A DNA stretch of 32,000 bases from Promethearchaeia archaeon. Lineage in GTDB: Archaea; Asgardarchaeota; Lokiarchaeia; Sigyniarchaeales; SOKP01. The position numbers and the translations under genes are program-made. The stretch covers positions 5,368-37,367 of the forward strand of contig JAWOFX010000134.1 of NCBI GenBank assembly GCA_046497275.1, in the 5' to 3' direction. Of this stretch, positions 2,678 to 23,397 are shown piece after piece. How positions within the stretch are numbered: position 1 is the stretch's first letter; each line of letters begins with the position of its first letter. The notes under the pieces are model-generated. The model saw nothing but the letters and a program-made list of their open reading frames with translations. It did no database searches and was not told where the DNA came from.

Positions 2678-3514
2678 CTATAATTGCCTCCTTTTGAAAA
2701 TTATAGCCGCAAATAATAAACTAAAGAACGTATATATAAGCATAATAGAGATTCCTGCGAATATTGTGGGCGTATTCCATGTTCTGAAAGTGAAATTTCT
2801 TACAGAAATTTGAGTGTATCGTTCCGCTACGGTTTCTGGAAAATCTAAATATAAAATAGATGACATTAAATTTCCCGCATATTGTAATGAGTAGAGTGGT
2901 TCAATATCAGGATTAGCTAAGACAACGAATTGGGTAATTACGTTAAAAGCGATTAACAGAATTAGAATTGTAGTAATTATTGTTATATTTTCTTTTTTCA
3001 TGAACGAACTGAAAAAGGTTATGAAACTACTTACCGCTAAAATATATAAAAGAGCCATCCCAAATGATTGAAAGAATCTAAAGTTAAGAGGGCCACCATA
3101 ATAATATAATCCAAGTAATCCTAAAGTGAAATAAAATACACCACTTATGCCCATTACTAAAGCATAACTGCCGATATATTTCCCAATAATTAGTTTATAT
3201 TTGCTTATCTTGGGAAAGAGGATGAATCCAGTCTCTTTATCATATTCGGAGCATATAATTCCTGAAAAAAAGAAACAATTCGCAAAGATCAGGATAAATG
3301 AAAGAAAAGTCTGATTTGTTCTGAAGTATTCCGTTTGGATCGATGGTAGCGAGTTTCCAGGAAAAAACGCATAAGGTAACCAACTTGCTAATAGGACTAG
3401 TCCAACAGTAATAACTGAAAAAGCAATAAATTTCTTCCATTGTTTTTTTAATTCAAATATAAACGTATGTCCAATCGGTTTCATTCCTATATATAATTTA
3501 TTAAAAAAGTCCAT
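2678..3514 (-). CDS. ABC-2 type exporter permease
   Basis: About six hydrophobic segments. The IICSEYDKETGFILFPKISKYKLIIGKY segment matches the conserved ABC-2 permease loop, and the gene is adjacent to an ABC ATPase. Confidence 0.85.
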   Translation of the reverse strand: MDFFNKLYIGMKPIGHTFIFELKKQWKKFIAFSVITVGLVLLASWLPYAFFPGNSLPSIQTEYFRTNQTFLSFILIFANCFFFSGIICSEYDKETGFILFPKISKYKLIIGKYIGSYALVMGISGVFYFTLGLLGLYYYGGPLNFRFFQSFGMALLYILAVSSFITFFSSFMKKENITIITTILILLIAFNVITQFVVLANPDIEPLYSLQYAGNLMSSILYLDFPETVAERYTQISVRNFTFRTWNTPTIFAGISIMLIYTFFSLLFAAIIFKRRQL

Positions 3515-3518
3515 TTTT

Positions 3519-4586
3519 CTAATTAAACCTCCTTCTATTCATTTCTTTTTGTGCATCTGTTCCTATTAATTGTTCATAGATACGTTCTAATTGGGATGTT
3601 CTAGGTTGTGAAAATGATACGATATTTAGCTCAGGAAAATCATTGACCAGAATCTTGAGTATTTTTGCTCGTGATTCTCTTTTTCCATCATAATATATGT
3701 TAAACTCCTTATCTTTTATGTTATAGGATATTGGGATTTTCGATATTTTTGGATCTAAATCCTTATCTAAATAAGGCTCAAGTTCCTTAGTTAATTTGTC
3801 TATTATTGGTTTTAACTTATCTGAAGATATATCTTTTAAAGGTTGGAATACCAATTCGTTAGTTTTTAAATTTAGTTCCAAATTTTCAATCGTATCGAAT
3901 GCGACGATTTGTCCACGGTTTATTAACGCAATCTTATCACAAATTTCTGAAATCTCGTGTAATAGATGTGAAGCAACGAAGATAGTTTTTCCTTGTTTTT
4001 GTAAAGATCGAATAAAACGCCGAACATCAATGCGAGCTTTCGGATCTAGTCCCGTTTGTGGTTCATCAAGGATAATAAAATCGGGATCATGAATAATAGC
4101 TTGTATTATCCCTAGTTTTTGCTTCATCCCCTTTGAGAATTCATCAACGGTTTCATATTTCCATTCATATAAATTGAATAATTGGAGCAATTTGTTCATT
4201 CTGTCTTCAATTTGATCGTTTGGATAATTCTGTAATTTCGCAAAATATTTTAATAATTGAGCTGGTGTCATTTCATAAAATGAGGGAATATCTATGAGAA
4301 ACCCCCTCGGAACGAGGTTTCTATCATTTTCAAATAAGTTTTGAAGCTCTCCGTGTTTATTTTGAACAAAGATTTTTCCACTTGTAGGTTTCATAATGGT
4401 TGAGATCATCTTAATTGTTGTCGTTTTTCCTGCTCCATTAGGCCCTACCAATCCAATTGTTTCCCCTCTTTTGACTTCTATATTTATATTATCAACTGCT
4501 TTCAGGTTCCCAAAATGTTTACTCAAATTCTCGAGTTTAATGATAGTTTCTAAAATTCTTTTCACCTGCTTTGATTTTTTTATCAA
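3519..4586 (-). CDS. ABC exporter ATP-binding subunit (start codon uncertain)
   Basis: Walker A GPNGAGKTT, signature variant FSKGM, Walker B IILDE, H-loop ASH. The track start is TTG 4586; an alternative GTG lies at 4565. Confidence 0.93.
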   Translation of the reverse strand: MIKKSKQVKRILETIIKLENLSKHFGNLKAVDNINIEVKRGETIGLVGPNGAGKTTTIKMISTIMKPTSGKIFVQNKHGELQNLFENDRNLVPRGFLIDIPSFYEMTPAQLLKYFAKLQNYPNDQIEDRMNKLLQLFNLYEWKYETVDEFSKGMKQKLGIIQAIIHDPDFIILDEPQTGLDPKARIDVRRFIRSLQKQGKTIFVASHLLHEISEICDKIALINRGQIVAFDTIENLELNLKTNELVFQPLKDISSDKLKPIIDKLTKELEPYLDKDLDPKISKIPISYNIKDKEFNIYYDGKRESRAKILKILVNDFPELNIVSFSQPRTSQLERIYEQLIGTDAQKEMNRRRFN

Positions 4587-4591
4587 ACATT

Positions 4592-5149
4592 TTATTTTTT
4601 GTTTTTCAAATTTTCAAGTTCATTCTCAATATTTTGTAGAAAACCTTCTAATTTTTGGATTCTCATCTTAACAAATCGTTTTCTTCTTTCTAAGAGTTTT
4701 ATCTTTTCTTCCTTCGGGATTTTTTGTGATTTTCTAAAAATCATTGGGGGGAACATAATGCGTTCGATATCATCATCAAACAAATCATCTTCTTCCAATC
4801 CAAATGATGTAATAATTATTGAACGCATTGCCTTCATCATATCTCTCTGTTTTTGGATCAGTCTTTTTAAAGTTTCCTCGCCTTTCAGTGTTAATTTATA
4901 ATTTTTCCTTGGACGTTTGTCTTCTTTCTCCTCTTCAATTATCTGTATTAAGTCATTTTTGCATAAATCATCTAAAAGCGGATACATTGTCGAGGCTGAA
5001 GGTTTCCACATGCCAAGCGTAAAATTCTCGATTTCCTGCATAATTTTATAACCGTGCATCGGTTTTTTTTCCAGAATCGTGAGCACTAGCATACTCATAA
5101 ATCCTTTTTTCATTGCTCTTTCAAACCGTTTAACATGCTCTTCTGTCAT
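4592..5149 (-). CDS. PadR-family transcriptional regulator
   Basis: LVLTILEKKPMHGYKIMQEI...WKPSASTMYPLLDDL...RPRKNYKLTLKGEE is the PadR winged-helix signature; first gene of the ABC operon. Confidence 0.92.
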   Translation of the reverse strand: MTEEHVKRFERAMKKGFMSMLVLTILEKKPMHGYKIMQEIENFTLGMWKPSASTMYPLLDDLCKNDLIQIIEEEKEDKRPRKNYKLTLKGEETLKRLIQKQRDMMKAMRSIIITSFGLEEDDLFDDDIERIMFPPMIFRKSQKIPKEEKIKLLERRKRFVKMRIQKLEGFLQNIENELENLKNKK

Positions 5150-5182
5150 TATTCAGGACCTAAAATATTGAGATTAAATTCT

Positions 5183-5231
5183 ATATATCGATCTACGATA
5201 TATCATTATTATATATAAGTTACCGATATAT
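5183..5231. promoter_or_regulatory. Tandem palindromic operator upstream of padR (probable autoregulatory site)
   Basis: Perfect ATATATCG-N5-CGATATAT at 5183-5203 and a second copy ATATATAA-N5-CGATATAT at 5211-5231, 34-82 bp upstream of the padR ATG. It overlaps minus-strand TTTATATA TATA-like boxes. Confidence 0.7.
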
Positions 5232-5618
5232 ATAAAAACTCTTAAATTAAGCTATTGAAAAAAAAATAGGTTCTCTTAGAAATTAAAATTAAATTTCAAC
5301 TAAATTGAACTAAAGATGAGGAATATAATTTCACATATTTCACGATATTAATAAATTCTGATTACTTTTTCCATTCCATTCCAAATAATTTATAGCTATC
5401 TGATACACCCATTAAATTTTCTACTTGAATACGGAATCCTTCAATATTTGAGACAAAAGGCACGAAATCCATAAAATCTCTTTTTTTATTTTTTTTAATA
5501 CTAGGAATGAGATTTCTAAATTCTATTGTTATCTAAAAGAATTCTGATCACATAAAATTATGAAATATTACTATAAGATATAAATTGAACGGAGAGTATT
5601 TGTAATAAGAGAGTCAAT

Positions 5619-6083
5619 ATGAGTGAAATCGTTCCAGAAAAAATTCATATAAAATATCTTGATTCGATTGAGAATAGAGAATCATTTTTGCCGCGAAAAT
5701 ATACTCTCACTCATTCAGATTTTACGGGAGATCTCTTTTTAACAATTAGTAAAGAATATGATACTGAAGAGTTTTCAGATTTCTATACGAAATTAATGAG
5801 GGATGAAGTGTTAGCAGAATGGAAGAAGAATGAGGATGAATATGAGCTTCATGTGTATCTCCACGTAAGCGGCGGTTTTGCTTTTGGTGGGGCATGGCTG
5901 CGAGATAAGATATTTCGACATCATATGCCTCATGTCTTAAAAGTAATTAGATATGGGGATAATGAACTTTTTGAAGCGATTCCAGAACTTGATAACTGTA
6001 ATATTATAGTCCATTTTCAATCGCAAAAAAAGAAATATGACACTGTTGAAAACTTTGGGCAATTTAGAGAGTATAAAGAATAG
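5619..6083 (+). CDS. STAY-GREEN (SGR)-family protein, Mg-dechelatase homolog
   Basis: 154 aa with PRKYTLTHSD, LMRDEVLAEW, LHVYLHVSGG, YGD and VHFQS...VENFG, matching plant SGR motifs (PRTYTLTHSD, RDEVVAEW, HVHCHISGG, HGD). Confidence 0.9.
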   Translation: MSEIVPEKIHIKYLDSIENRESFLPRKYTLTHSDFTGDLFLTISKEYDTEEFSDFYTKLMRDEVLAEWKKNEDEYELHVYLHVSGGFAFGGAWLRDKIFRHHMPHVLKVIRYGDNELFEAIPELDNCNIIVHFQSQKKKYDTVENFGQFREYKE

Positions 6084-6137
6084 ATACCCATAATTAAACT
6101 TTTAGAATAAAACTTCCCTATTAAATTACTATTCATT

Positions 6138-7481
6138 ATGAATTCTAGACGAGTCCGGCAATTAAAAAAGGCACCTGAAAAAAAAGGACCAATTTTATAT
6201 TGGATGAGTAGAGATCAGCGAATAAACGACAATTGGGCGTTAATATATGCCCAAGAGAAAGCAATAAAAACAAAAAGTCCGCTTGTTGTTATTTTTAACT
6301 TATTGCCAGAGTTCAAGGAAGCAACCATGAGAGCATATAAGTTTATGGTAAATGGATTACAAAAATTAGAAAAAAAGTTAGACTCACTTAACATCTCATT
6401 TGTTCTCAAACAAGGATACTCCGAAGAAACCATCCCAAATTTTATTGATGATTACAATATAAGTGTATTGATCACTGATTTCTCTCCCCTCAAGATAAAA
6501 CAAGCATGGATTGATAAAATAAAAGACCTTATCTCAGTTCCCTTTTATGAAGTAGATGCTCATAATATAATCCCAGTCTGGGAAGCCTCGAATAAAAAGG
6601 AATATGCTGCCTATACATTACGTAGTAAGATTGAAAGCAAATTAAATCAATATTTAGATGAATTTCCAAAAATAAAAAAACATCCAAACCCCTGGAATGA
6701 AAATTTTTCTTCTATTGAATGGTCTAAAATCTTTAATAAAATGAATCTTCAACAAATTCAATCTAATAGCATTGATTTTATATCTGGAGAAGATGAAGCT
6801 CATAAAACTTTAAAAAAATTCCTTAAAACTAAATTTCATGACTATAATAGGGATAGGAATGATCCAACCAAAGACGCGACTTCTAATTTGTCTCCTTATT
6901 TACATTTTGGACACATAGCGTCTCAGAGAGTGGTTTTAGAAGCTCAAAAAGTGAAACCAATAAAACAGTTAAAAAACTCCTTTTATGATGAGATTATTGT
7001 TCGAAAAGAATTATCTGATAATTTCTGCTTTTATGAATCTAGCTATGATGCTTTTGAAGGATTTCATTCTTGGGCAAAAGAAACGTTAAATACCCATCGT
7101 AATAATGAAAGAGAATATATCTATTCGACAGAAGATTTCGAAAATGCAAAAACTCATGATGATGCGTGGAATGCTGCTCAACTTCAGATGGTCAAAACAG
7201 GAAAAATGCATGGATATATGAGGATGTATTGGGGGAAAAAGATTCTTGAATGGACGGAATCTCCAGAGCAGGCTCTTGATATTGCGATTTATTTGAATGA
7301 TAAATACGAATTGGATGGGAGAGATCCAAATGGATATACGGGAATTGCATGGTCCATAGGTGGTATTCATGATAGAGCATGGAAGGAGCGAAAAATCTTT
7401 GGAAAGGTAAGATATATGTCCTATAATGGTTTAAAGAGAAAATTTGATATTCAAAATTTTATAGATAATTATAATTCTTAA
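6138..7481 (+). CDS. phr: Class II CPD DNA photolyase
   Basis: YWMSRDQRINDNWAL N-terminus; SNLSPYLHFGHI; HDDAWNAAQ; GKMHGYMRMYWGKKILEW; YLNDKYELDGRDPNGY; GGIHDRAWKERKIFGKVRYM. These are class II-specific motifs and include the Trp triad. Confidence 0.96.
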   Translation: MNSRRVRQLKKAPEKKGPILYWMSRDQRINDNWALIYAQEKAIKTKSPLVVIFNLLPEFKEATMRAYKFMVNGLQKLEKKLDSLNISFVLKQGYSEETIPNFIDDYNISVLITDFSPLKIKQAWIDKIKDLISVPFYEVDAHNIIPVWEASNKKEYAAYTLRSKIESKLNQYLDEFPKIKKHPNPWNENFSSIEWSKIFNKMNLQQIQSNSIDFISGEDEAHKTLKKFLKTKFHDYNRDRNDPTKDATSNLSPYLHFGHIASQRVVLEAQKVKPIKQLKNSFYDEIIVRKELSDNFCFYESSYDAFEGFHSWAKETLNTHRNNEREYIYSTEDFENAKTHDDAWNAAQLQMVKTGKMHGYMRMYWGKKILEWTESPEQALDIAIYLNDKYELDGRDPNGYTGIAWSIGGIHDRAWKERKIFGKVRYMSYNGLKRKFDIQNFIDNYNS

Positions 7482-7499: not shown

Positions 7500-8492
7500 T
7501 TGAATGAGTTTGTAAAACCGACGGTAGTAAGCTCAAAATGCATTGAATTTGAGTATTGTCGTTATAATGCGAATATTATAAGTAGTGATGTAGTAAAAGA
7601 GATGAAGAGTTTTGTAAACTTTATCCCTGTGTGTCCAGAAGTTGAAATCGGGTTGGGTGTTCCAAGAGATCCAATTCGGATTATTCAAGAGGATGATTCT
7701 TTAACATTAATGCAAAGTTCCACGGGAAGAGATGTGACATCCTCAATGATTAATTTTGCGGAAAATTTCTTAGATTCTCTGGATTATGTAGATGGATTTA
7801 TTTTGAAATATAAATCACCGTCTTGTGGCACTAAACACACTCCATATTTGGCAAGCATCCAAAAAGGGGCAGCGAAATTAGGAATGGGTCCTGGTTTGTT
7901 CGGAAAAGTAGTAATGGAAAGATTTCCAAATTTACCTATTGAAAATGAAGGGAGACTGAAAAATTTCAGAATACGAGAATATTTTTTAACTAAATTATAC
8001 ACAATTGCTAGGTTTAGAGAAGTCAAGAATTCTGAAAAAATGCGAAGATTAGTTGACTTTCAGGCAAACAATAAATTTCTTTTCATGGCATATAATCAGG
8101 CAGAGATGAGAGAAATGGGTCGTATAGTCGCAAATCAAGAAAAACAATCTTTCTCAACACTCATAACAAAATATGAATCTCATCTTCTCAAACTTTTAGC
8201 TTATCCACCAAAATTTACTTCTCACATAAATGTGTTGATGCATATGTTAGGTTATTTCTCAGATGACCTTACAAAAGATGAGAAGGCATATTTTCTTGAT
8301 GAATTGGAAAAATATCGAGCAGGATGGATCCCATTATTCGTTATGAGAAGTCTACTGAAATCTTGGATAGTAAGATTTAATCAGCCCTATTTAAAAACTC
8401 AGACCTATTTCGAAATCTTTCCGGAAGAGCTCATGAGATTTGATTTAAAAGATACTTGGCGGGGGAGAAGTTATTGGGAGAAACCAAAATGA
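7500..8492 (+). CDS. DUF523-DUF1722 fusion (YbgA family; TudS/RudS-like thiouracil / 4-thiouridine desulfidase)
   Basis: N-terminal domain has SSKC..RYN, PVCPEVEIGLGVPRDPIR and KSPSCG (three Fe-S Cys). C-terminal DUF1722-like helical part has NKFLFMAY and NVLMHMLGYF. TTG start follows a GAGGT RBS; the gene sits directly after phr, as in the E. coli ybgA-phr linkage. Confidence 0.88.
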   Translation: MNEFVKPTVVSSKCIEFEYCRYNANIISSDVVKEMKSFVNFIPVCPEVEIGLGVPRDPIRIIQEDDSLTLMQSSTGRDVTSSMINFAENFLDSLDYVDGFILKYKSPSCGTKHTPYLASIQKGAAKLGMGPGLFGKVVMERFPNLPIENEGRLKNFRIREYFLTKLYTIARFREVKNSEKMRRLVDFQANNKFLFMAYNQAEMREMGRIVANQEKQSFSTLITKYESHLLKLLAYPPKFTSHINVLMHMLGYFSDDLTKDEKAYFLDELEKYRAGWIPLFVMRSLLKSWIVRFNQPYLKTQTYFEIFPEELMRFDLKDTWRGRSYWEKPK

Positions 8493-9396: not shown

Positions 9397-9888
9397 ATGG
9401 TAAATTTTATTTCCCAAGAAATGAACGATTTAATGAATAAACAAATCGTCGAAGAACTAAGATCAGCATATATATACTTAGGAATGGCTGCGTGGGCGGA
9501 TCGAGAGGGTCTAAAAGGCTTCGCTCAGTTTATGCGTACACATGCAGAACAAGAAGAATATAAACATGCAATGAAATTCGTAGATTATATCTTAGAAGCT
9601 GGAGGTAAAGTAGAATATGGAACAATTGAAAAAATCTCGACTGACTGGCAGGATGTTGAAACCGTTTTAAAAGAGGCAATTTCCCATGAAGAACATATTA
9701 CCAGCACAATAAAGAATTTAATGGATTTAGCTCAACAGAAGAATGAAGTATATGCATTTGAACTTTTAAATTGGTTTCTTGAAGAGCAAATGGAAGAGGA
9801 GAATCTATTCACTGATCTCTATGATGCTTTTAAACTAAGTGGCAGAAATCTTCTTATGTGGGACAGAAATATTAAACATCCAGAATAA
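9397..9888 (+). CDS. ftn: Non-heme ferritin
   Basis: MNKQIVEELRSAYIYLGMAAW, GFAQFM, EEYKH, HEEHIT, FLEEQMEEE ferroxidase-centre motifs; GGTGA RBS at 9385-9389. Confidence 0.93.
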   Translation: MVNFISQEMNDLMNKQIVEELRSAYIYLGMAAWADREGLKGFAQFMRTHAEQEEYKHAMKFVDYILEAGGKVEYGTIEKISTDWQDVETVLKEAISHEEHITSTIKNLMDLAQQKNEVYAFELLNWFLEEQMEEENLFTDLYDAFKLSGRNLLMWDRNIKHPE

Positions 9889-10658: not shown

Positions 10659-12173
10659 TTAATTGTACGCATCTCTTTCTGGATACCGTGGATATAATCT
10701 AATTATTTCTCTTAACATTCGATCAGTCAATTCCTTTCTAAGATTTTCATCATCCCATAAATTATTCATTTCATCGGGATCTTCCTTCAGATTATAAATA
10801 TCTCCAAACTCAGGTAAGCTTTCATATATTGTATACCTAAAAGTTTCAGTAACGAGGGTGCGTAATCTCATAATCTTATCTTTGGCTATCTCCTCATCAT
10901 GTTCTATTAAAATTTGGTCGCGAATTTTTTTATCTGGATTCTCTAAAACTTCGGTAAAATCATACCCTTGCATTCGTTTTGGATGATATTTTTCTCTGAT
11001 TCCTAACATATTTAAGATTGTTTTTGGCAGATCAATTGTTGAAATGAGTGAATTTGAAACCTTATTTACCGATTTACCAGGAACTTTCCATAAAAGTGGT
11101 ATATTAATTAAATTATTGTAATGTGCGGGACCTTTCAATATTAAACCATGATCTCCACATAAATCCGCATGATCACTTGTGAAGATAATCATTGTATTTT
11201 CAAAAAGTCCTAATTCATTTAATTTTTCCAATATCGCTCCGACACCATCATCAATCATGGAAATAGATCCATATGTTAATGCGGTAAATTTTTTAGCAGT
11301 TTTTTCATCAACTTTTTGAGGTAATAGATGTCTAAACCGAGCATCCTTTATATGTTGACCCAAAAATGGATGTTCAAGCAAATTTTCACCGTCTTTGAAA
11401 CTAGGTGGTAATATGATATCTTCAGGTGAGTAAAGATCCTTATATTTTCCCGGAGGACAGACCGGATGATGTGGATCATTATAAGAACAATGCAAAAAGA
11501 AGGGTTTATCTCCATACTCTCCTTCTGAATATCTCTCAAAAAACGCAAGAGTTTGTTCGGTTATATAATGAGTAGGGTAAAGCTCCTCAGGCAACTCAGT
11601 CTCATAATAATTTTCATTTATAGCCAGAAATCGGTTTTTTAACTTATCTATATTTTCATAATTTTGCTCTTTTAGCCATTCAAAATAATGCCCTCCCATC
11701 ACATCTCCATGTCCAACTGTTAATAAAACCTCATCAAATCCATAATAAGGGGTCGGAAATGGATTTGGAATTTGTCCCATCATCCATGCGGAGATGTCTT
11801 CCAGAGAAGATACATTTCTACTAAAGGGATGAGAAAAAAAATTGAAATGGGTTTTCCCAATCGAAATTGTATGGTATCCTTTCTCTCTTAAGCTGTCTGC
11901 TATCGTTTTTTCTTCTGGATTTAAATTAATTCCATTTGATCTGGTTCCATGAACACTTGGATAAGAACCTGTGAAAAAATTTGCTCTATTCGGCATGCAA
12001 ATCGGAGTATTGCAATAATAATTCGTAAATCTAACTCCATCCTCACCGATTTTATCAATATTTGGCGTCTTGAGAACTCGATTCCCATAACAACTTAAAT
12101 GATCTGTTCTTTGCTGATCGGTAATTATAAACAATACATTGATCTTTTTGCTCATTTTTGAATCATTTTCCAT
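10659..12173 (-). CDS. Cys-type sulfatase-family hydrolase (copy A)
   Basis: NVLFIITDQQR, CMPNRA (CxPxR), GKTH, DPHHP, FTSDHADLCGDHGL, LYNL..DPDEMNNLW. Confidence 0.95.
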   Translation of the reverse strand: MENDSKMSKKINVLFIITDQQRTDHLSCYGNRVLKTPNIDKIGEDGVRFTNYYCNTPICMPNRANFFTGSYPSVHGTRSNGINLNPEEKTIADSLREKGYHTISIGKTHFNFFSHPFSRNVSSLEDISAWMMGQIPNPFPTPYYGFDEVLLTVGHGDVMGGHYFEWLKEQNYENIDKLKNRFLAINENYYETELPEELYPTHYITEQTLAFFERYSEGEYGDKPFFLHCSYNDPHHPVCPPGKYKDLYSPEDIILPPSFKDGENLLEHPFLGQHIKDARFRHLLPQKVDEKTAKKFTALTYGSISMIDDGVGAILEKLNELGLFENTMIIFTSDHADLCGDHGLILKGPAHYNNLINIPLLWKVPGKSVNKVSNSLISTIDLPKTILNMLGIREKYHPKRMQGYDFTEVLENPDKKIRDQILIEHDEEIAKDKIMRLRTLVTETFRYTIYESLPEFGDIYNLKEDPDEMNNLWDDENLRKELTDRMLREIIRLYPRYPERDAYN

Positions 12174-14317: not shown

Positions 14318-15166
14318 TTATTCTTTTTTTTCCTCTACCAATTTTCTATCAATCAATTCTTTCATATATTTAAATCCTGGAGTTAAATTTTCTGTTAAAT
14401 TTAGTGGGATCATTGATTTAATTGGAAAGCCAAGACCTTGCCTCCCTCCTGTTTTAAACAGATTTTGAAGTATATAAAAGATATGATCGGCGGGCATTCC
14501 AATTCCAATCTCATGATCTTGAATTCCAGCAAATGATCTATCGCCTGATCCGGGAATAACAATTTGGGCTTTTCGAGTGAGAAACGGCATTAAACTTCCT
14601 TTTCCACAAGATTCTCCAAAACCTTCAAAACTTGAATTTATACTATATTTTTTTTTATGTTCAAAACAGAGAGCATGAATTATGTGAGTTATTTGTGCTC
14701 CATTCCCAAACACTAAAATAGTATCAGGAATGAGGGGTGATTTATGTAATGGATATGAAATCAATCCGCAATATCCAAGTTCCATGATATTCTTAAAATT
14801 ACTTGAATATAATTTTTTAGCTCTTCTAATCTCTGCTTTTTCATCCTTATGCCATCCTTGACGGACTTGGCTTTCAATGAATTCCTCTTCTGAGATCTTT
14901 ACCCAACCATGGGCAACCGTAGAAGGTGTACAAAAATTATCCGCTGCGGTAATGGCGTAATTGTTTCCAAATCTTCGAGACATATAGAATGCTTGGCATA
15001 TACTCATTCTTTTATCTCTCTTAGAAGGTTGAATTGCCTCTTTGGGTATTTCCGACTCATCTTTAATGTATTTTATTCCAATTGGATAACTTTGAAAATG
15101 AAGTTCATCGTAAAGCTCTTGACCTGCTTTTTGGAACTCCTCTAAATTCTTATTTTTACCTGACAT
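14318..15166 (-). CDS. DUF169-family protein (COG2043-like), paralog 1
   Basis: YPIGIKY, ICQAFYMSRR, NFCT, PDTILVFG, GESCG, PGSGDR and IGIGMP follow the DUF169 pattern. Confidence 0.85.
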   Translation of the reverse strand: MSGKNKNLEEFQKAGQELYDELHFQSYPIGIKYIKDESEIPKEAIQPSKRDKRMSICQAFYMSRRFGNNYAITAADNFCTPSTVAHGWVKISEEEFIESQVRQGWHKDEKAEIRRAKKLYSSNFKNIMELGYCGLISYPLHKSPLIPDTILVFGNGAQITHIIHALCFEHKKKYSINSSFEGFGESCGKGSLMPFLTRKAQIVIPGSGDRSFAGIQDHEIGIGMPADHIFYILQNLFKTGGRQGLGFPIKSMIPLNLTENLTPGFKYMKELIDRKLVEEKKE

Positions 15167-15178
15167 TTCTAATTAATC

Positions 15179-16006
15179 TCAATTATCTTTTTTTATTCTT
15201 TTTCTTAAATATGGCCATACACCAGGTTCATTAGGACTTCCAAATATATCTAATGGACCCAATGAGGCGTTTAAATTTGGAATCCCAAAGGGTTTGGGAT
15301 TGATCTTATTACCGGCTAAAAATAAATTATCATTAACTTCTTTTAACTTAGATTCTGGAATAGAAAAAATCATCTCGAAATCTTGTACTCCCGCGAGAAC
15401 GCGATCTCCCATACCCGGAGCTACAACTTGACATTGATTTGTTGTAAAAGTTCTAATTATGCCCTCTTTACAAGAACTTTCCATTCCATTGAAATAACTT
15501 GTTATATAATCACCATTATAAGTAGCTGATAGGATTAGATGGGATAATATTAACGGCGTACAATAAATCATTATCACATCGGGAATTATAATAGATGCGT
15601 GTAGAGGAGAAACAACTAAACCCTTGAACTCTCCAAATTCAAGCGTAGCATCACATTCTCTTGATCCTTTTTCTGCTACCATATTTTTTTTATATCCTGC
15701 TTTTTTTTCCCATGCTTCAAACACGACATTTGGATCATCCACTTTTTCAAAGCCAAAATTACGAATAGAAATTGGTTTACACACAATATCTTCTCCTTTT
15801 AAAAAGAATGAAAATCCTGAACGACGACACCATGTGTAACTTAAACAAGCGGGAATTTCTCTTCCAAATACATCGAGAGGTCTTAAGGCATTGGATGAGA
15901 CTTCTTCATTTTCTTTAATCAGTTTAACTGCGATCGGATAAGTCTGAAGTTTTAATTTATCAATTAGTTTTTGTCCTATTTTCTTATAGGTTTCTAAATG
16001 CTCCAT
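15179..16006 (-). CDS. DUF169-family protein, paralog 2
   Basis: YPIAVKL, PACLSY, IVCKP, PDVIMIY, ESSC, PGMGDR, MIFSIP; strong GGAGG RBS. Confidence 0.85.
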   Translation of the reverse strand: MEHLETYKKIGQKLIDKLKLQTYPIAVKLIKENEEVSSNALRPLDVFGREIPACLSYTWCRRSGFSFFLKGEDIVCKPISIRNFGFEKVDDPNVVFEAWEKKAGYKKNMVAEKGSRECDATLEFGEFKGLVVSPLHASIIIPDVIMIYCTPLILSHLILSATYNGDYITSYFNGMESSCKEGIIRTFTTNQCQVVAPGMGDRVLAGVQDFEMIFSIPESKLKEVNDNLFLAGNKINPKPFGIPNLNASLGPLDIFGSPNEPGVWPYLRKRIKKDN

Positions 16007-16025: not shown

Positions 16026-17300
16026 TTATTTTTTTTGAGATTTAATCCTCGATTTAATCTGTTTAGCTCCGTTATTTATAATATTACGAACGATAAATGA
16101 GGGTTCTTCTTTCATTTTCTTGTTTAAAATATCATATTTAAGTTTTAACGCTTCCAATGATTTGTCTTCCCCTAAAGAATCCTCTCCTTGAATAATAACA
16201 TCCAGCATATGAAGTGCTAGTTGATATTCCTGATTATCATAAAGTTTTTTTGCATGGTTGAGATATTTTTCAGGTCTATTTATTTTCAAAAATTCTTGAG
16301 CGATTTTATGTGATTTCGCTGGAAAAAGGTCAGTTGGATTTCCCGTATCATACCAACCGTGATATAATCTATATACTGCATGTATGGCAAAACGATAGCT
16401 GCCATAAAGAGGCTTGAGATATTCATGATTCTTGAACTTATCAGGATATATTTCTAGCATTTCATGGAATATTTGTTCAAACCATTTTCCTTCATTCAAT
16501 CGTTTAACAACTTCGTCATGAACAAAATGCATAGCTTCAGCGGTAATTTCTAAAACATCCCTTACTTTATCTTTTCCCTCTATCATTTTCCCATGACCTG
16601 GGATAATATATTTTGCATCTTTTTCCATCATATGTTCCATTGCCATTGCCCATCCTTTCGGATATCGTTGCACTTTATAAGGATTTCCAACATTTGGATA
16701 TGAGGAAATCATCAGATCTCCACTACAAATTAACTCCTTCTCTGGAACCCATAACCAACTGGAATCGTCTGTCTCTCCAATATCATGATTAACTTCAAAC
16801 TCTATTCCTCCAAATTCAAACACAAATGGTTCTTTACCATCGAGGATTATTGTTGGATATAAAACTTCATGGGGAGATATTACCTCATCATCCTTTCCCA
16901 TAACGGAACCAAATTGCTGAGCATTTAGCCATTTATGATATCCATCAAGCATCTGATATTTCTTAAATCTTTTAACTACATTTTCATGCGCAATTATTTC
17001 CGGCATTTCCCATCCTTTCTCTTTAATTTCTGAAATAAATGGCTCAAACCCATAAGAATGGTCGAAATGACCATGACTATAAATAATGTACTTTATAGGT
17101 TTTTCAGTAATGCTTCTAATAGTCTTAAAATTGCGGGGACCGAACTGCTTTAATCCAATATCAAACATTACCAATCCATCGTCCGTTTCTATAATCCCAA
17201 CATTTCCAAATGACGGGATCAAATGAACGGTATTATCTTGTACACTCTTGGGAGGATACATACCGAGGAAAAACTTAATATCATCTTGAGAATAACTCAT
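16026..17300 (-). CDS. Alkyl/aryl-sulfatase-like MBL-fold hydrolase (SdsA/BDS1-type catalytic plus dimerisation domains)
   Basis: IIYSHGHFDH, GETDD..WLWVP, SGD....YPN, IPGHG, and YRLYHGWYDTGNPTDLFP matching the dimerisation-domain motif; no C-terminal sterol-carrier domain apparent. Confidence 0.85.
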   Translation of the reverse strand: MSYSQDDIKFFLGMYPPKSVQDNTVHLIPSFGNVGIIETDDGLVMFDIGLKQFGPRNFKTIRSITEKPIKYIIYSHGHFDHSYGFEPFISEIKEKGWEMPEIIAHENVVKRFKKYQMLDGYHKWLNAQQFGSVMGKDDEVISPHEVLYPTIILDGKEPFVFEFGGIEFEVNHDIGETDDSSWLWVPEKELICSGDLMISSYPNVGNPYKVQRYPKGWAMAMEHMMEKDAKYIIPGHGKMIEGKDKVRDVLEITAEAMHFVHDEVVKRLNEGKWFEQIFHEMLEIYPDKFKNHEYLKPLYGSYRFAIHAVYRLYHGWYDTGNPTDLFPAKSHKIAQEFLKINRPEKYLNHAKKLYDNQEYQLALHMLDVIIQGEDSLGEDKSLEALKLKYDILNKKMKEEPSFIVRNIINNGAKQIKSRIKSQKK

Positions 17301-19626: not shown

Positions 19627-19660
19627 TATACAAATTTAATATTAAACTAGTATTTGTATA
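19627..19660. promoter_or_regulatory. Inverted repeat upstream of the right-arm DUF169 gene (candidate operator)
   Basis: TATACAAAT (19627-19635) -N16- ATTTGTATA (19652-19660), a perfect 9-bp inverted repeat ending 23 bp before ATG 19684. Confidence 0.4.
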
Positions 19661-19683
19661 AAAAATTCCATGAGATTAAAAAA

Positions 19684-20535
19684 ATGTCAGAAATTATAGA
19701 AGAATTTAGAACAACGGGACAAAAATTCTATAATAAACTCAGATTATTAACTTATCCAGTTGCGATAAAATTTATCAAGGATTACGAGGAGATTCCAGAA
19801 GAAGCCCACAGACCTTCCAAGATTGGACAAACAATTACTTTATGTCAAGCCTTCACGATGGCACGACGCTGGGGAGAGCATGTTGCTATGGCCTATGAAG
19901 ATAATGCATGCATAACTAGTTCTCTTGTTCATCAATGGAAAAAGGTTCCAATTAAAGATATAATTGAATCCCAGATAAAATCTGGCTATCATAAAGATGC
20001 AAAAGCTGAAATAGCGGTTCAATCTCAATATAGTGCTTTAGCAAAGAAGGAAAATTATCTCAAAATCAAGGATCATGTAGGATTCATCGTCTCTCCTCTC
20101 ACTAAAACGATTGTGGAACCAGATGTTATTCTAGTTTATGGGGATCCCGCTCAGATGACGCATATCGTACAAGCATTAAGCTATGAGGGAAAATACCTTG
20201 TAAATTCTTCATTTATTGGATTTGGAGAGTCATGTCTTAAAGGTGTCCTAATACCATATATTACAGATAAGCCGGAGGTTGTATTGCCTGGTACTGGAGA
20301 TAGAACACTCGCATTAACAAAGGAAGAGGAGATGGCCATAGGTATGCCAGCCAAACTCATTTCATATGTCAATGAAAATCTTTTCAAATCAGGAGAATCA
20401 TTCAATATGGGAGAACCATCGAGATTTTTTGTTGGAAATATCCCCGAAGGGTTTGGACCACCAGCATGGAGCTTTTTAAAGAGAAAGGTAGAAAACCAAG
20501 AAAAGAAAAATGCAAAAAAAGAAAACTCAAGCTAA
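19684..20535 (+). CDS. DUF169-family protein, paralog 3
   Basis: ATG 19684 is preferred over the track's TTG 19654 by comparison with paralog N-termini. Motifs: YPVAIKF, LCQAFTMARR, NACIT, PDVILVYG, GESCL, PGTGDR, MAIGMP. Confidence 0.87.
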   Translation: MSEIIEEFRTTGQKFYNKLRLLTYPVAIKFIKDYEEIPEEAHRPSKIGQTITLCQAFTMARRWGEHVAMAYEDNACITSSLVHQWKKVPIKDIIESQIKSGYHKDAKAEIAVQSQYSALAKKENYLKIKDHVGFIVSPLTKTIVEPDVILVYGDPAQMTHIVQALSYEGKYLVNSSFIGFGESCLKGVLIPYITDKPEVVLPGTGDRTLALTKEEEMAIGMPAKLISYVNENLFKSGESFNMGEPSRFFVGNIPEGFGPPAWSFLKRKVENQEKKNAKKENSS

Positions 20536-21888: not shown

Positions 21889-23397
21889 ATGAGTGAAAGG
21901 ATGAATGTATTATTTATAATTACAGACCAACAGAGAGCAGATCACTTAGGATGCTACGGAAACCCAATATTAAATACTCCTAATATTGATAAGATCGCGG
22001 ATGAGGGAGTACGCTTTACAAATGCGTATTGTGCAAATCCTATGTGCATGCCAAATCGTGCAACGTTGTTAACGGGTTTATTTCCTAATGCACATGGAGT
22101 CAGGAGTAACGGAATAAATCTTCCTGAAGATATTCCTACTATTGCTGAAACTTTACGAGAAAGAGGATGGTATACGAAGTCTATAGGAAAAACCCATTAT
22201 CAATTTAATTTTCCTCCTTATAAACGATCTTCAGAATCAGCGGAATTGATCTCTGAATGGATTCGACCTAAAACTGTGGAGAAAAAGAAAAAACGGTTTG
22301 AATCTCCTTATTATGGATTTGAAGATGTCGAAATTACACTAGGTCATGGAGATTTAGTCGCTGGGCATTATCTTGATTGGTTAGAAGAACGATCTCCGAA
22401 ACACGCTCTTGAGATTAAGAAACGATTTACTAAATTTTTTGATAATCTTATGTATGAAACATCATTGCCAATAGAATTATATCCGACTACTTATGTAAAA
22501 GAGAGAACCATCAATTTCTTTGAAAAATATAAAAAAGGAGATTTTGAAGATAAACCATTCTTTCTTCATTGTTCTTTTCCTGATCCGCATCATCCTGTCT
22601 GTCCCCCCGGAAATTATTATGATATGTTTGATCAAGATAAAATTGAATTACCAGAAAGTTTCGATGATGCTGAGAATCTTTACGACCATCATTTTCTGGG
22701 AAGATATTTAAAAGACCCAATATTTCGTGGGGCTTTACTACGAGAATCCTCTGAAGAAGATGCTAAGAAATTCCTTGCACTTACATACGGTTCAATTTCT
22801 ATGATCGATCATAGTGTAGGGGAGATATTAGCCTCCTTAAGTAAATTGGGATTAGAAGATAATACTATGGTGATTTATACGAGCGATCATGGTGATTTAG
22901 CGGGAGATCATGGACTATTGCTTAAAGGCCCATCACCCTATAAAGGTATACTTAATGTTCCATTGATTTGGAAAGTGCCAGAGATAACAGAAAAAGGTAT
23001 TTCGGATTCTTTAATCAGTTCAGTTGATATTCCAAAAACAATATTGGAATTATTGAACATAAAGGAGCGCCACCAACCACCCGATATGCAGGGTTATGAT
23101 ATGACACCCATTTTACAGAATCCAAACGAGACGGTTAGAGATTGTTGTTTGATTGAGGAAGACGAGGAAGTAACAAATATTCAAATACGACTACGTCATT
23201 TAATCACAGATAAATATAAATTAACGGTTTACGAGGGATTTGATAAAGGTGACCTTTATGATTTAGAAGCGGATCCGAATGAATTAAATAATTTATGGGA
23301 TACACAGAAGGAGATACGTAAGGAGTTGGTTTATAAGTTATTACAAGAAAATCTAAAAGTGCAAGCAAGATACCCAAAACGAGAATCTCTTACATAG
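21889..23397 (+). CDS. Cys-type sulfatase-family hydrolase (copy B)
   Basis: NVLFIITDQQR, CMPNRA, GKTH, DPHHP, YTSDHGDLAGDHGL, LYDLEADPNELNNLW; 14 bp after the MFS gene. Confidence 0.95.
   Translation: MSERMNVLFIITDQQRADHLGCYGNPILNTPNIDKIADEGVRFTNAYCANPMCMPNRATLLTGLFPNAHGVRSNGINLPEDIPTIAETLRERGWYTKSIGKTHYQFNFPPYKRSSESAELISEWIRPKTVEKKKKRFESPYYGFEDVEITLGHGDLVAGHYLDWLEERSPKHALEIKKRFTKFFDNLMYETSLPIELYPTTYVKERTINFFEKYKKGDFEDKPFFLHCSFPDPHHPVCPPGNYYDMFDQDKIELPESFDDAENLYDHHFLGRYLKDPIFRGALLRESSEEDAKKFLALTYGSISMIDHSVGEILASLSKLGLEDNTMVIYTSDHGDLAGDHGLLLKGPSPYKGILNVPLIWKVPEITEKGISDSLISSVDIPKTILELLNIKERHQPPDMQGYDMTPILQNPNETVRDCCLIEEDEEVTNIQIRLRHLITDKYKLTVYEGFDKGDLYDLEADPNELNNLWDTQKEIRKELVYKLLQENLKVQARYPKRESLT

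What the first reader, a model, noticed from the sequence alone, without database searches (positions are those of the whole stretch)
5619..6083. STAY-GREEN (chlorophyll Mg-dechelatase) homolog with apparently intact catalytic residues in a probable Asgard archaeon
Counting from Met1, the protein has R26, Y28, T29, H32, D34, R61, D62, R95 and D114. From memory, these match in identity and numbering the residues reported as important in the Anaerolineae SGR homolog that removes Mg from chlorophyll in vitro; this needs confirming by alignment. Plant SGR is thought to derive from non-photosynthetic bacterial homologs. An archaeal copy may point to use or detoxification of chlorophyll from settling algal detritus, to another metal-tetrapyrrole substrate, or to horizontal transfer from Chloroflexota.
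Basis: partly seen in the sequence, partly recalled or inferred. Interest (0 to 1): 0.72.

Follow-up and report, generated by a model that had tools for sequence, protein, structure and literature searches.

The report
Staygreen gene heading archaeal photolyase operon
An Asgard archaeon carries an intact copy of the enzyme family that plants use to strip magnesium from chlorophyll, placed directly in front of its only UV-repair (photolyase) gene; the family is already known in archaea, but its repeated placement beside light-sensor and light-repair genes is a testable clue to its unknown natural role.

Summary
It aligns without gaps to the Anaerolineae homolog AbSGR-h (PDB 7Y5Y), so the numbering is the same. 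All 12 positions mutated in AbSGR-h are kept, and the model matches 7Y5Y at TM 0.91.

The contig is Asgard: it is fully syntenic with a Promethearchaeota MAG contig. This is not rare or new. 108 of 400 Asgard genomes carry the family, NCBI already labels many copies 'staygreen family protein', and papers mention archaeal homologs. The gene sits in an Asgard clade, so it is not a recent import from Chloroflexota.

What I add is context. The gene leads a string of Staygreen, class II CPD photolyase (the genome's only one), a RudS-like tRNA 4-thiouridine desulfidase and a racemase. Across Asgard, Chloroflexota and an actinobacterium, Staygreen lies within 10 kb of heliorhodopsin, photolyase or TspO far more often than chance predicts.

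The genome lacks tetrapyrrole synthesis and plant-type chlorophyll catabolism. My best reading is a light-stress dechelatase acting on foreign chlorophyll-type pigments (confidence about 0.5).

This scan has already noted the same link on other DNA in at least 17 genomes. Activity is untested.

The parts
5619..6083 (+). Staygreen (SGR-homolog) gene, 154 aa. Active-site residues H32, D34 and D62. Structural residues R26, Y28, T29 and D114. Hexamer-linked residues T31, R61, E63 and R95.
5150..5618 (.). A 469-nt AT-rich intergenic region shared with the divergent PadR gene. It presumably holds the promoter of the Staygreen-photolyase string. An A/T-rich TATA-like stretch lies about 35-48 nt before the ATG; this is read by eye and is weak in a 30% GC genome.
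   Evidence: The sigma-70 scan was uninformative.
6138..7481 (+). Class II CPD photolyase, 447 aa, 54 nt behind Staygreen. It is the only photolyase found in the genome.
   Evidence: PF00875 at 105.9 bits. Methanosarcina mazei class II photolyase 2xry at 534 bits. Single match in the genome.
7500..8492 (+). RudS-like protein (TudS/DUF523 desulfidase fused to DUF1722), 18 nt behind the photolyase.
   Evidence: PF04463 at 121.9 bits plus PF08349 at 142.1 bits. The RudS function and its habit of sitting in light-responsive operons come from PMC11417400.
8456..9181 (+). Asp/Glu/hydantoin racemase family gene. It overlaps the end of the RudS-like gene and is probably the last gene of the string.
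   Evidence: PF01177 at 135.4 bits. The same order is kept in L035, L116, L117 and L119.
9397..9888 (+). Ferritin-like gene, 215 nt further on. It is syntenic in L035, but whether it belongs to the unit is uncertain.
   Evidence: PF00210 at 110.7 bits. Synteny.
4592..5149 (-). PadR-family regulator, divergent neighbour, heading an ABC-transporter operon (3519-4586, 2678-3514, 1705-2676). It is probably not part of the Staygreen unit: in L035 it lies 2.7 kb away.

Best explanation
The gene encodes a working member of the Staygreen family of the compact prokaryotic (AbSGR-h) type. It is a small soluble enzyme in which D34 binds the central Mg of a chlorophyll-type tetrapyrrole, and the H32-D62 pair helps to pull the metal out, leaving the metal-free pigment.

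In this Asgard archaeon it is the first gene of a light-damage string: Staygreen, class II CPD photolyase, RudS-like tRNA 4-thiouridine desulfidase, racemase. The cell cannot make tetrapyrroles itself, so the substrate is most likely chlorophyll, bacteriochlorophyll or their breakdown products taken up from phototrophs or detritus in lit sediment. Removing Mg would be the first step in disarming or dislodging these photosensitisers.

Shown: family membership, fold, residues, gene order, recurrence of light genes next to the family, and lack of tetrapyrrole synthesis. Inferred: activity, substrate, co-transcription and the protective role.
For: Family, fold and residues. Mechanism and mutant data for AbSGR-h: PMC8531759 and PMC11006732.

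Operon-like layout: gaps of 54 nt and 18 nt, then an overlap. The order Staygreen-photolyase-RudS-racemase-ferritin is kept in L035 and in G274 of the same genus at about 70% protein identity. The photolyase is class II and is the only one in the genome. RudS genes are reported to sit in light-responsive operons with photolyases (PMC11417400).

Recurrence elsewhere:
- Among 80 named loci (1.14 Mb in all), heliorhodopsin is present in 17, photolyase in 10 and TspO-like in 10. At least one of the three is present in 29. About 0.3 of each is expected by chance.
- Photolyase lies within 400 nt of Staygreen in another Asgard genus (L047), a Nanopelagicaceae (L072) and a Dehalococcoidia (L100), in different orders.
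- In 400 Asgard genomes, 31 of about 81 genomes that have both genes keep Staygreen within about 10 kb of heliorhodopsin. These fall in 4 genera of 3 families and show several architectures.

The genome is 98.9% complete and has no ALAD, porphobilinogen deaminase or CobN/ChlH. It does have heliorhodopsin and a type-1 rhodopsin.

Weak support: exact-match contigs from salt-lake RNA libraries cover Staygreen, and two of them bridge the Staygreen/photolyase gap (X8 5832-6198 and X6 5957-6325).
Against: No activity has been measured for any Asgard homolog. Published bacterial homologs differ widely in Mg-dechelating activity although they share these residues. The residues are conserved across the whole family.

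Metal-free pheophytin and pheophorbide are themselves photosensitisers (text), and no ring-opening enzyme (PaO) or RCCR was found. How Mg removal alone would protect the cell is therefore unexplained.

The photolyase adjacency is absent from 30 other Asgard loci at +-1.5 kb. Three members of the same genus keep photolyase-RudS-racemase without Staygreen in front. One Asgard family has Staygreen in 10 of 19 genomes but no heliorhodopsin.

Neighbouring accessory genes can travel together without a shared function, and related genomes are not independent counts. RNA-library contigs can carry DNA and do not prove a single transcript. No light-responsive regulator was identified.
Confidence: 0.5

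Rival explanations
1. The native substrate is something else: another metal chelate, or a molecule unrelated to chlorophyll. Mg removal from chlorophyll would then be only a side activity of the family, as the 'promiscuous activity' view of bacterial homologs holds. The light-gene neighbourhood would reflect a different light-related chemistry.
For: The literature summarised reports that homologs vary widely in activity, that AbSGR-h has low substrate specificity, and that the natural role in non-phototrophs is unknown. The genome makes no tetrapyrroles. The most frequent Asgard neighbours are an SDR (20 of 28 loci) and a SAM methyltransferase (18 of 28), which are not tetrapyrrole-specific.
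Against: The complete H32/D34/D62 site and the 7Y5Y fold are kept. TspO-like tetrapyrrole-binding proteins recur beside the family in 10 of 80 loci. No alternative substrate is suggested by any data here.
Confidence: 0.25
2. The enzyme serves nutrition. It opens the breakdown of chlorophyll from settled algal detritus to harvest phytol, nitrogen or Mg, with no link to light.
For: The DNA is found in sediment metagenomes. Alpha/beta-hydrolases, the fold of pheophytinase-type esterases, recur near the family in 12 loci.
Against: No PaO or RCCR was found, and the only chlorophyllase match is below the cut-off (19 bits). The neighbours here are DNA and tRNA photodamage genes, not catabolic ones. 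The excess of heliorhodopsin and photolyase genes near the family is not expected for a feeding pathway.
Confidence: 0.12
3. The position next to the photolyase is incidental. Staygreen is a mobile accessory gene that landed in a variable spot upstream of a conserved photolyase-RudS block, and it shares neither regulation nor function with that block.
For: Same-genus genomes G275, G276 and G278 carry photolyase-RudS-racemase with other genes in front: a fatty-acid desaturase, a DPRP/cryptochrome-like gene and an LRR protein. G277 has Staygreen but no photolyase match. In this genome the other recurrent neighbours are scattered.
Against: The adjacency persists at about 70% protein identity (G000 against G274/L035). 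It arose in other orders in distant lineages (L047, L072, L100). RNA-library contigs bridge the 54-nt gap.
Confidence: 0.1
4. The gene is a recent import from Chloroflexota, or the contig is a mis-binned bacterial contig.
For: Identity to Chloroflexota homologs is high for proteins from different domains (48-54%). Genome contamination is estimated at 4.4%.
Against: Eleven genes in a row are syntenic with a Promethearchaeota MAG contig at 52-89% identity. Contig GC is 31.7% against 30.4% for the genome. The protein groups with Asgard sequences (SH-aLRT 98 for the 4-row clade, inside Asgard-dominated clades).
Confidence: 0.03

Closest known systems
AbSGR-h, the SGR homolog of Anaerolineae bacterium SM23_63 (PDB 7Y5Y; PMC8531759, PMC11006732)
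   Same: Same length class (154 against about 153-161 aa). Ungapped alignment, with 51% identity by Foldseek. Same fold (TM 0.91). All 12 mutated positions are identical, including H32/D34/D62 and the R26-D114 pair.
   Different: The host is an archaeon. The MIDAS-like motif reads THSDFT rather than THSDST. Activity, substrate range and hexamer state are untested. The protein sits in a separate, Asgard-dominated clade.
Plant STAY-GREEN proteins SGR1/SGR2 and SGRL (chloroplast Mg-dechelatases)
   Same: Same Pfam domain. The same 12 positions are conserved, except E63D in the SGRL example.
   Different: Plant proteins are about 250-290 aa with extra N- and C-terminal parts. They form a long separate branch (SH-aLRT 100). 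They act inside a full PAO/phyllobilin pathway, which this genome lacks.
Light-responsive photolyase/RudS operons of bacteria (PMC11417400)
   Same: A photolyase is directly followed by a TudS-DUF1722 fusion on one strand with tiny gaps.
   Different: The setting is an archaeon and the photolyase is class II. A Staygreen gene stands at the head and a racemase at the tail. No MerR/LitR-type light regulator was seen; the only nearby regulator is a divergent PadR.
Heliorhodopsin partner neighbourhoods (photoprotection and UV-repair genes next to heliorhodopsins; PMC8612252)
   Same: Staygreen lies within 10 kb of heliorhodopsin in 31 Asgard genomes and in 17 of 80 named loci. Published heliorhodopsin contexts also hold photolyases.
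   Different: In this genome heliorhodopsin is on another contig (C51). The heliorhodopsin paper does not mention Staygreen.

Membership tests
Staygreen family (Pfam PF12638) | Full-length match to the family profile above the curated cut-off | tested here: met
   166.1 bits against a cut-off of 27, covering profile positions 4-147 of 147
Staygreen family (Pfam PF12638) | The fold of the solved member 7Y5Y | tested here: met
   AF2 model with pLDDT 81.4. Foldseek to 7y5y_A gives TM 0.91/0.92 and rmsd 2.0 A; the next hit is at E 0.01
Staygreen family (Pfam PF12638) | Active-site residues H32, D34 and D62 | tested here: met
   Present at the same numbers in an ungapped alignment.
Staygreen family (Pfam PF12638) | Structural residues R26, Y28, T29 and D114 (R26-D114 ionic pair) | tested here: met
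   All present
Staygreen family (Pfam PF12638) | Homo-oligomer (hexamer), dependent on T31, R61, E63 and R95 | not tested
   The residues are present. The assembly itself was neither modelled nor measured
Staygreen family (Pfam PF12638) | Mg-dechelatase activity on chlorophyll a | not testable with these tools
   This needs a recombinant assay. Published homologs vary widely in activity
Plant-type SGR/SGRL | Chloroplast-targeting N-terminus and C-terminal extension (about 250-290 aa), and membership of the plant clade | tested here: not met
   The protein is 154 aa, the domain only. Plants form a separate long branch.
PAO/phyllobilin chlorophyll breakdown pathway | PaO, RCCR and chlorophyllase/pheophytinase partners in the same genome | tested here: not met
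   No PaO. No RCCR, although that control rang nowhere. The chlorophyllase match scores only 19 bits, below the cut-off. The genome is 98.9% complete
Light-responsive photolyase-RudS operon | Photolyase and a TudS-DUF1722 fusion co-directional and adjacent | tested here: met
   Gap of 18 nt. The order is kept in L035, L116, L117 and L119
Light-responsive photolyase-RudS operon | Light-dependent regulator or measured light induction | tested here: inconclusive
   No MerR/LitR/CarH-type gene was seen in the window by Pfam. RNA-library contigs show presence only

The most novel reading that the evidence does not exclude
Staygreen homologs of non-phototrophic archaea and bacteria are light-stress effectors. 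They would be switched on together with photolyase, RudS, heliorhodopsin or TspO, and would strip Mg from chlorophyll-type pigments that leak in from phototrophic neighbours, so limiting photosensitised damage. The plant senescence enzyme would then descend from a microbial anti-photosensitiser defence. This window would be the variant in which the gene is wired directly to the DNA/tRNA photodamage repair operon.
Probability: 0.35. Interest if true: 0.7.

Novelty: new member of a known kind. Interest (0 to 1): 0.42.

Why it matters
The natural role of Staygreen homologs in organisms without chlorophyll is an open question. The only published idea found here is a 'promiscuous' activity later borrowed by plants.

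This window gives a clean, testable case. The organism cannot make tetrapyrroles. It has two rhodopsins. Its only photolyase gene sits 54 nt behind Staygreen.

If the light-stress reading holds, it explains why the family is common in sediment and mat archaea and in Chloroflexota, and it suggests where the plant enzyme's function came from. If it fails, the gene is simply one more annotated family member.

Tried and rejected
- NCBIfam gave no model for the protein.
- The search for related loci with the single protein found nothing, and the 32-sequence alignment was too diverse to seed a scan. An 11-sequence alignment worked.
- The photolyase adjacency was looked for in 30 Asgard loci with +-1.5 kb flanks and not found. 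It appeared only with wider flanks, and in few lineages.
- The bacterial sigma-70/terminator scan found no more sites than in shuffled sequence and does not suit an archaeon.
- Literature searches for 'staygreen'+'Asgard' and 'heliorhodopsin'+'staygreen' returned nothing. The heliorhodopsin context paper does not mention Staygreen.
- Two unknown ORFs that lie between PadR and Staygreen in L035 have no Pfam family.
- Stretches of the window without cover in the RNA-library contigs (for example 5236-5419, 5604-5787 and 6524-6891) cannot be interpreted. Contig depth cannot rank genes.
- Habitat hints from runs with small word shares were not used.
- The tree backbone is unresolved: it is a quick search with many forks under 80, and plants and several representatives sit on long branches. 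No donor or direction of transfer is claimed.
- I did not run complex prediction for the hexamer, because the report does not rest on it.

Full report
**1. What is there**

window:5619-6083 (+) is an ATG-to-stop frame of 154 codons, and the opposite strand is closed.

- Pfam Staygreen (PF12638) matches end to end at 166 bits, E 6e-49. NCBIfam has no model for it.
- Against the PDB, the only hit is 7y5y_A, the Anaerolineae SGR homolog. Residues 2-153 align to 2-153 without a gap at E 5.8e-49.
- An AlphaFold2 model (pLDDT 81.4; the loop at 52-60 is uncertain) superposes on 7y5y_A at TM 0.91 and rmsd 2.0 A. The next PDB hit is at E 0.01.

**2. What the residues mean**

In Dey et al. 2021 (PMC8531759):
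- D34N and D62N are soluble but dead, and H32A is weak.
- R26D, Y28A, T29A and D114N are insoluble, so these residues are structural.
- R61A, E63Q and R95A stay highly active but lose the hexamer.

The later structural work, as summarised in PMC11006732, has D34 ligating the Mg and H32/D62 assisting.

The window protein keeps all 12 mutated positions. So do nearly all of the 139 family members I aligned, including plant SGR and SGRL and a Lachnospiraceae protein. The residues therefore establish an intact family member. They do not show that chlorophyll is the substrate. Published homologs with the same residues vary widely in activity.

**3. Whose gene it is**

- The best named relatives are almost all Asgard MAG proteins, many already labelled 'staygreen family protein'.
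- Eleven consecutive window genes (URO-D family through a 227-aa ORF) are collinear with contig SHMW01000039.1 of a Promethearchaeota MAG at 52-89% protein identity.
- Contig GC (31.7%) fits the genome (30.4%).
- The genome has 3.85 Mb in 188 contigs, is 98.9% complete with 4.4% contamination, and holds one Staygreen copy.

The refutation test 'the contig is bacterial' fails.

**4. How common it is**

The family is present in 108 of 400 genomes of the same phylum. The distribution is patchy: 63 of 134 genomes in the window's family and 3 of 6 other genomes of its genus. Among species-representative genomes, at least 509 loci encode relatives. They come from Asgard lineages, Bathyarchaeia, other archaea, many Anaerolineae and Dehalococcoidia, one Nanopelagicaceae and one Pirellulales. 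A library clustered at 50% identity holds 629 related clusters, including plant SGR and SGRL.

Archaeal homologs are mentioned by Dey 2021, which cites Obata 2019. A 2026 preprint names a Sigynarchaeales genome. An archaeal Staygreen is therefore not new in itself.

**5. Phylogeny**

I built a quick IQ-TREE tree of 139 rows under LG+C20.
- The window groups with L035, L036 and one representative (SH-aLRT 98).
- That group sits inside an Asgard-dominated clade of 15 rows (87), which also holds the Nanopelagicaceae sequence.
- A second Asgard clade has 48 rows (94).
- A third Asgard group falls with the Chloroflexota/Bathyarchaeia cluster, with weak support (82).
- Plants form a long separate branch (100), and the backbone is unresolved.

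I conclude only that this gene is of Asgard type and not a recent Chloroflexota import. The direction of the older transfers between domains cannot be read from this tree.

**6. Context in the window**

Staygreen is followed on the same strand by four genes:
- After 54 nt, a class II CPD photolyase (PF00875; 534 bits to the Methanosarcina mazei enzyme 2xry).
- After 18 nt, a TudS(DUF523)-DUF1722 fusion.
- Overlapping that gene, an Asp/Glu racemase family gene.
- After 215 nt, a ferritin-like gene.

TudS-DUF1722 fusions are RudS enzymes. [quoted passage not shown] The photolyase here is the only one in the genome. Upstream, a PadR regulator with an ABC transporter is transcribed divergently.

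The Staygreen-photolyase-RudS-racemase order is kept in L035 and in G274 of the same genus at about 70% identity. Three other congeners have photolyase-RudS-racemase with other genes in front: a fatty-acid desaturase, a photolyase-related DPRP gene and an LRR protein. One congener has Staygreen but no photolyase match. Staygreen is thus a variable add-on to a conserved photodamage block.

**7. Is the light link more than local?**

I tested this before reading any earlier notes.

In 30 Asgard loci with short flanks the photolyase was absent, but heliorhodopsin appeared beside Staygreen.

I then compared the coordinates of all Staygreen and heliorhodopsin matches in the same 400 genomes. About 81 genomes have both genes, where about 36 would be expected if the two were independent. 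In 31 of them the two genes lie on one contig within about 10 kb, mostly 0.1-4 kb apart. These genomes fall in four genera of three families. The arrangements include tandem, divergent and spaced forms. Chance predicts about 0.5% per genome.

In the 80 named loci (1.14 Mb in total):
- heliorhodopsin occurs in 17, photolyase in 10 and a TspO-like protein in 10;
- at least one of the three occurs in 29;
- these include 14 of 32 Chloroflexota loci and 10 of 28 Promethearchaeota loci.

Photolyase lies within 400 nt of Staygreen in another Asgard genus (L047), a Nanopelagicaceae (L072) and a Dehalococcoidia (L100), in differing gene orders.

Caveats apply. Related genomes are not independent counts. 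Accessory genes can cluster in flexible islands. One Asgard family has Staygreen in 10 of 19 genomes and no heliorhodopsin.

**8. The rest of the genome**

- No ALAD, porphobilinogen deaminase or CobN/ChlH was found, although the controls rang. The cell cannot make tetrapyrroles, so any tetrapyrrole substrate is foreign.
- No PaO or RCCR was found, and the only chlorophyllase match is below the cut-off. There is no plant-type breakdown pathway.
- The genome does have a heliorhodopsin (C51), a type-1 rhodopsin (C156) and a TspO-like gene (C95). This fits a lit habitat.
- The recurrent Asgard neighbours of Staygreen (SDR, SAM methyltransferase and others) are scattered in this genome.

**9. Expression**

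Near-identical DNA occurs in sediment metagenomes, and parts of it occur in salt-lake metatranscriptome libraries. When laid on the window, exact-match contigs from those RNA libraries cover Staygreen, photolyase, RudS and ferritin. Two contigs, both from runs of one study, bridge the Staygreen/photolyase gap: X8 at 5832-6198 and X6 at 5957-6325. The tool warns that DNA can be present in such libraries and that a contig is not a transcript. I count this as weak support only.

**10. Reading**

The most likely reading (about 0.5) has three parts:
- The protein is an active AbSGR-h-type dechelatase.
- It is made together with the photodamage repair genes.
- It acts on chlorophyll-type pigments acquired from outside.

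The main rival (0.25) is that the true substrate is something else and the chlorophyll activity is a side reaction. A feeding role (0.12), chance adjacency (0.10) and recent bacterial origin (0.03) fit the data less well.

One open weakness is chemical. Metal-free pheophorbides are still photosensitisers, and no downstream enzyme is identified.

**11. Novelty and score**

The gene is a new member of a known, already annotated family.

The Staygreen-photolyase-RudS wiring and the wider light-gene association do not appear in the papers I could search. However, this scan has already noted the same association on other DNA: 20 notes in at least 17 genomes, plus a first-reader note on this very operon. 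Those notes agree with my independent counts but are not independent evidence.

Interest: 0.42.

Noticed in passing
window:492-1592 (+): This is a URO-D family protein (125 bits), 87% identical in L035, in a genome that has no ALAD or porphobilinogen deaminase. It is therefore unlikely to be a haem-pathway decarboxylase. It may be a corrinoid-dependent (MtaA-like) methyltransferase.
   Followed up: partly
window:10659-23397: This stretch is a dense cluster: two sulfatases (10659-12173, 21889-23397), three DUF169 paralogs (14318-15166, 15179-16006, 19654-20535), an alkyl-sulfatase-like MBL protein (16026-17300), another MBL hydrolase, two ferredoxin-domain proteins and an MFS transporter. It looks like a locus for using sulfated compounds.
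   Followed up: no
L035:7799-8488 and L035:9147-9839: In the syntenic Promethearchaeota contig, two ORFs of about 230 aa with no Pfam family lie between PadR and Staygreen. The window has only 469 nt there.
   Followed up: partly
L118:1316-2698 (G276:C250): A same-genus genome without Staygreen has a photolyase-related DPRP/FAD-binding gene directly in front of the class II photolyase, in the slot where Staygreen sits here.
   Followed up: partly
L037-L067 (Asgard loci), e.g. L053:1-822, L064:2872-3513: In Asgard the commonest Staygreen neighbours are a divergent short-chain dehydrogenase about 100 nt upstream (20 of 28 loci) and a SAM methyltransferase 60-110 nt downstream (18 of 28). From general knowledge, plant chlorophyll b reductases NYC1/NOL are also SDRs. 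Whether these neighbours are related to them was not tested. The window's genome has no close copy of the SDR (35% identity at best).
   Followed up: partly
L072 (Nanopelagicaceae contig DATKTW010000016.1): An actinobacterial Staygreen nests inside an Asgard clade. It is flanked by heliorhodopsin (681 nt, divergent) and photolyase (11 nt downstream). The light-gene cassette may have moved between domains.
   Followed up: no
window:6024: One RNA-library contig (run X6, depth about 5) has an extra A after 6024, inside Staygreen, which would shift the frame. Three other runs do not show it. It is probably an assembly error or a rare variant.
   Followed up: no
G000:C51:36740-37486 and G000:C156:93873-94445: The genome carries both a heliorhodopsin (272 bits) and a type-1 rhodopsin (94.7 bits) on other contigs, yet lacks tetrapyrrole synthesis.
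   Followed up: partly
P0146, P0147, P0169, P0195, P0208: Some relatives carry the Staygreen domain inside much longer proteins (400-790 aa). Fused forms therefore exist. Their partner domains were not examined.
   Followed up: no
window:26486-26965 (-): This PEMT/DUF1295/ICMT-like membrane methyltransferase is 58% identical to a protein that recurs near Staygreen in 11 other loci. Here it lies 20 kb downstream on the same contig.
   Followed up: partly
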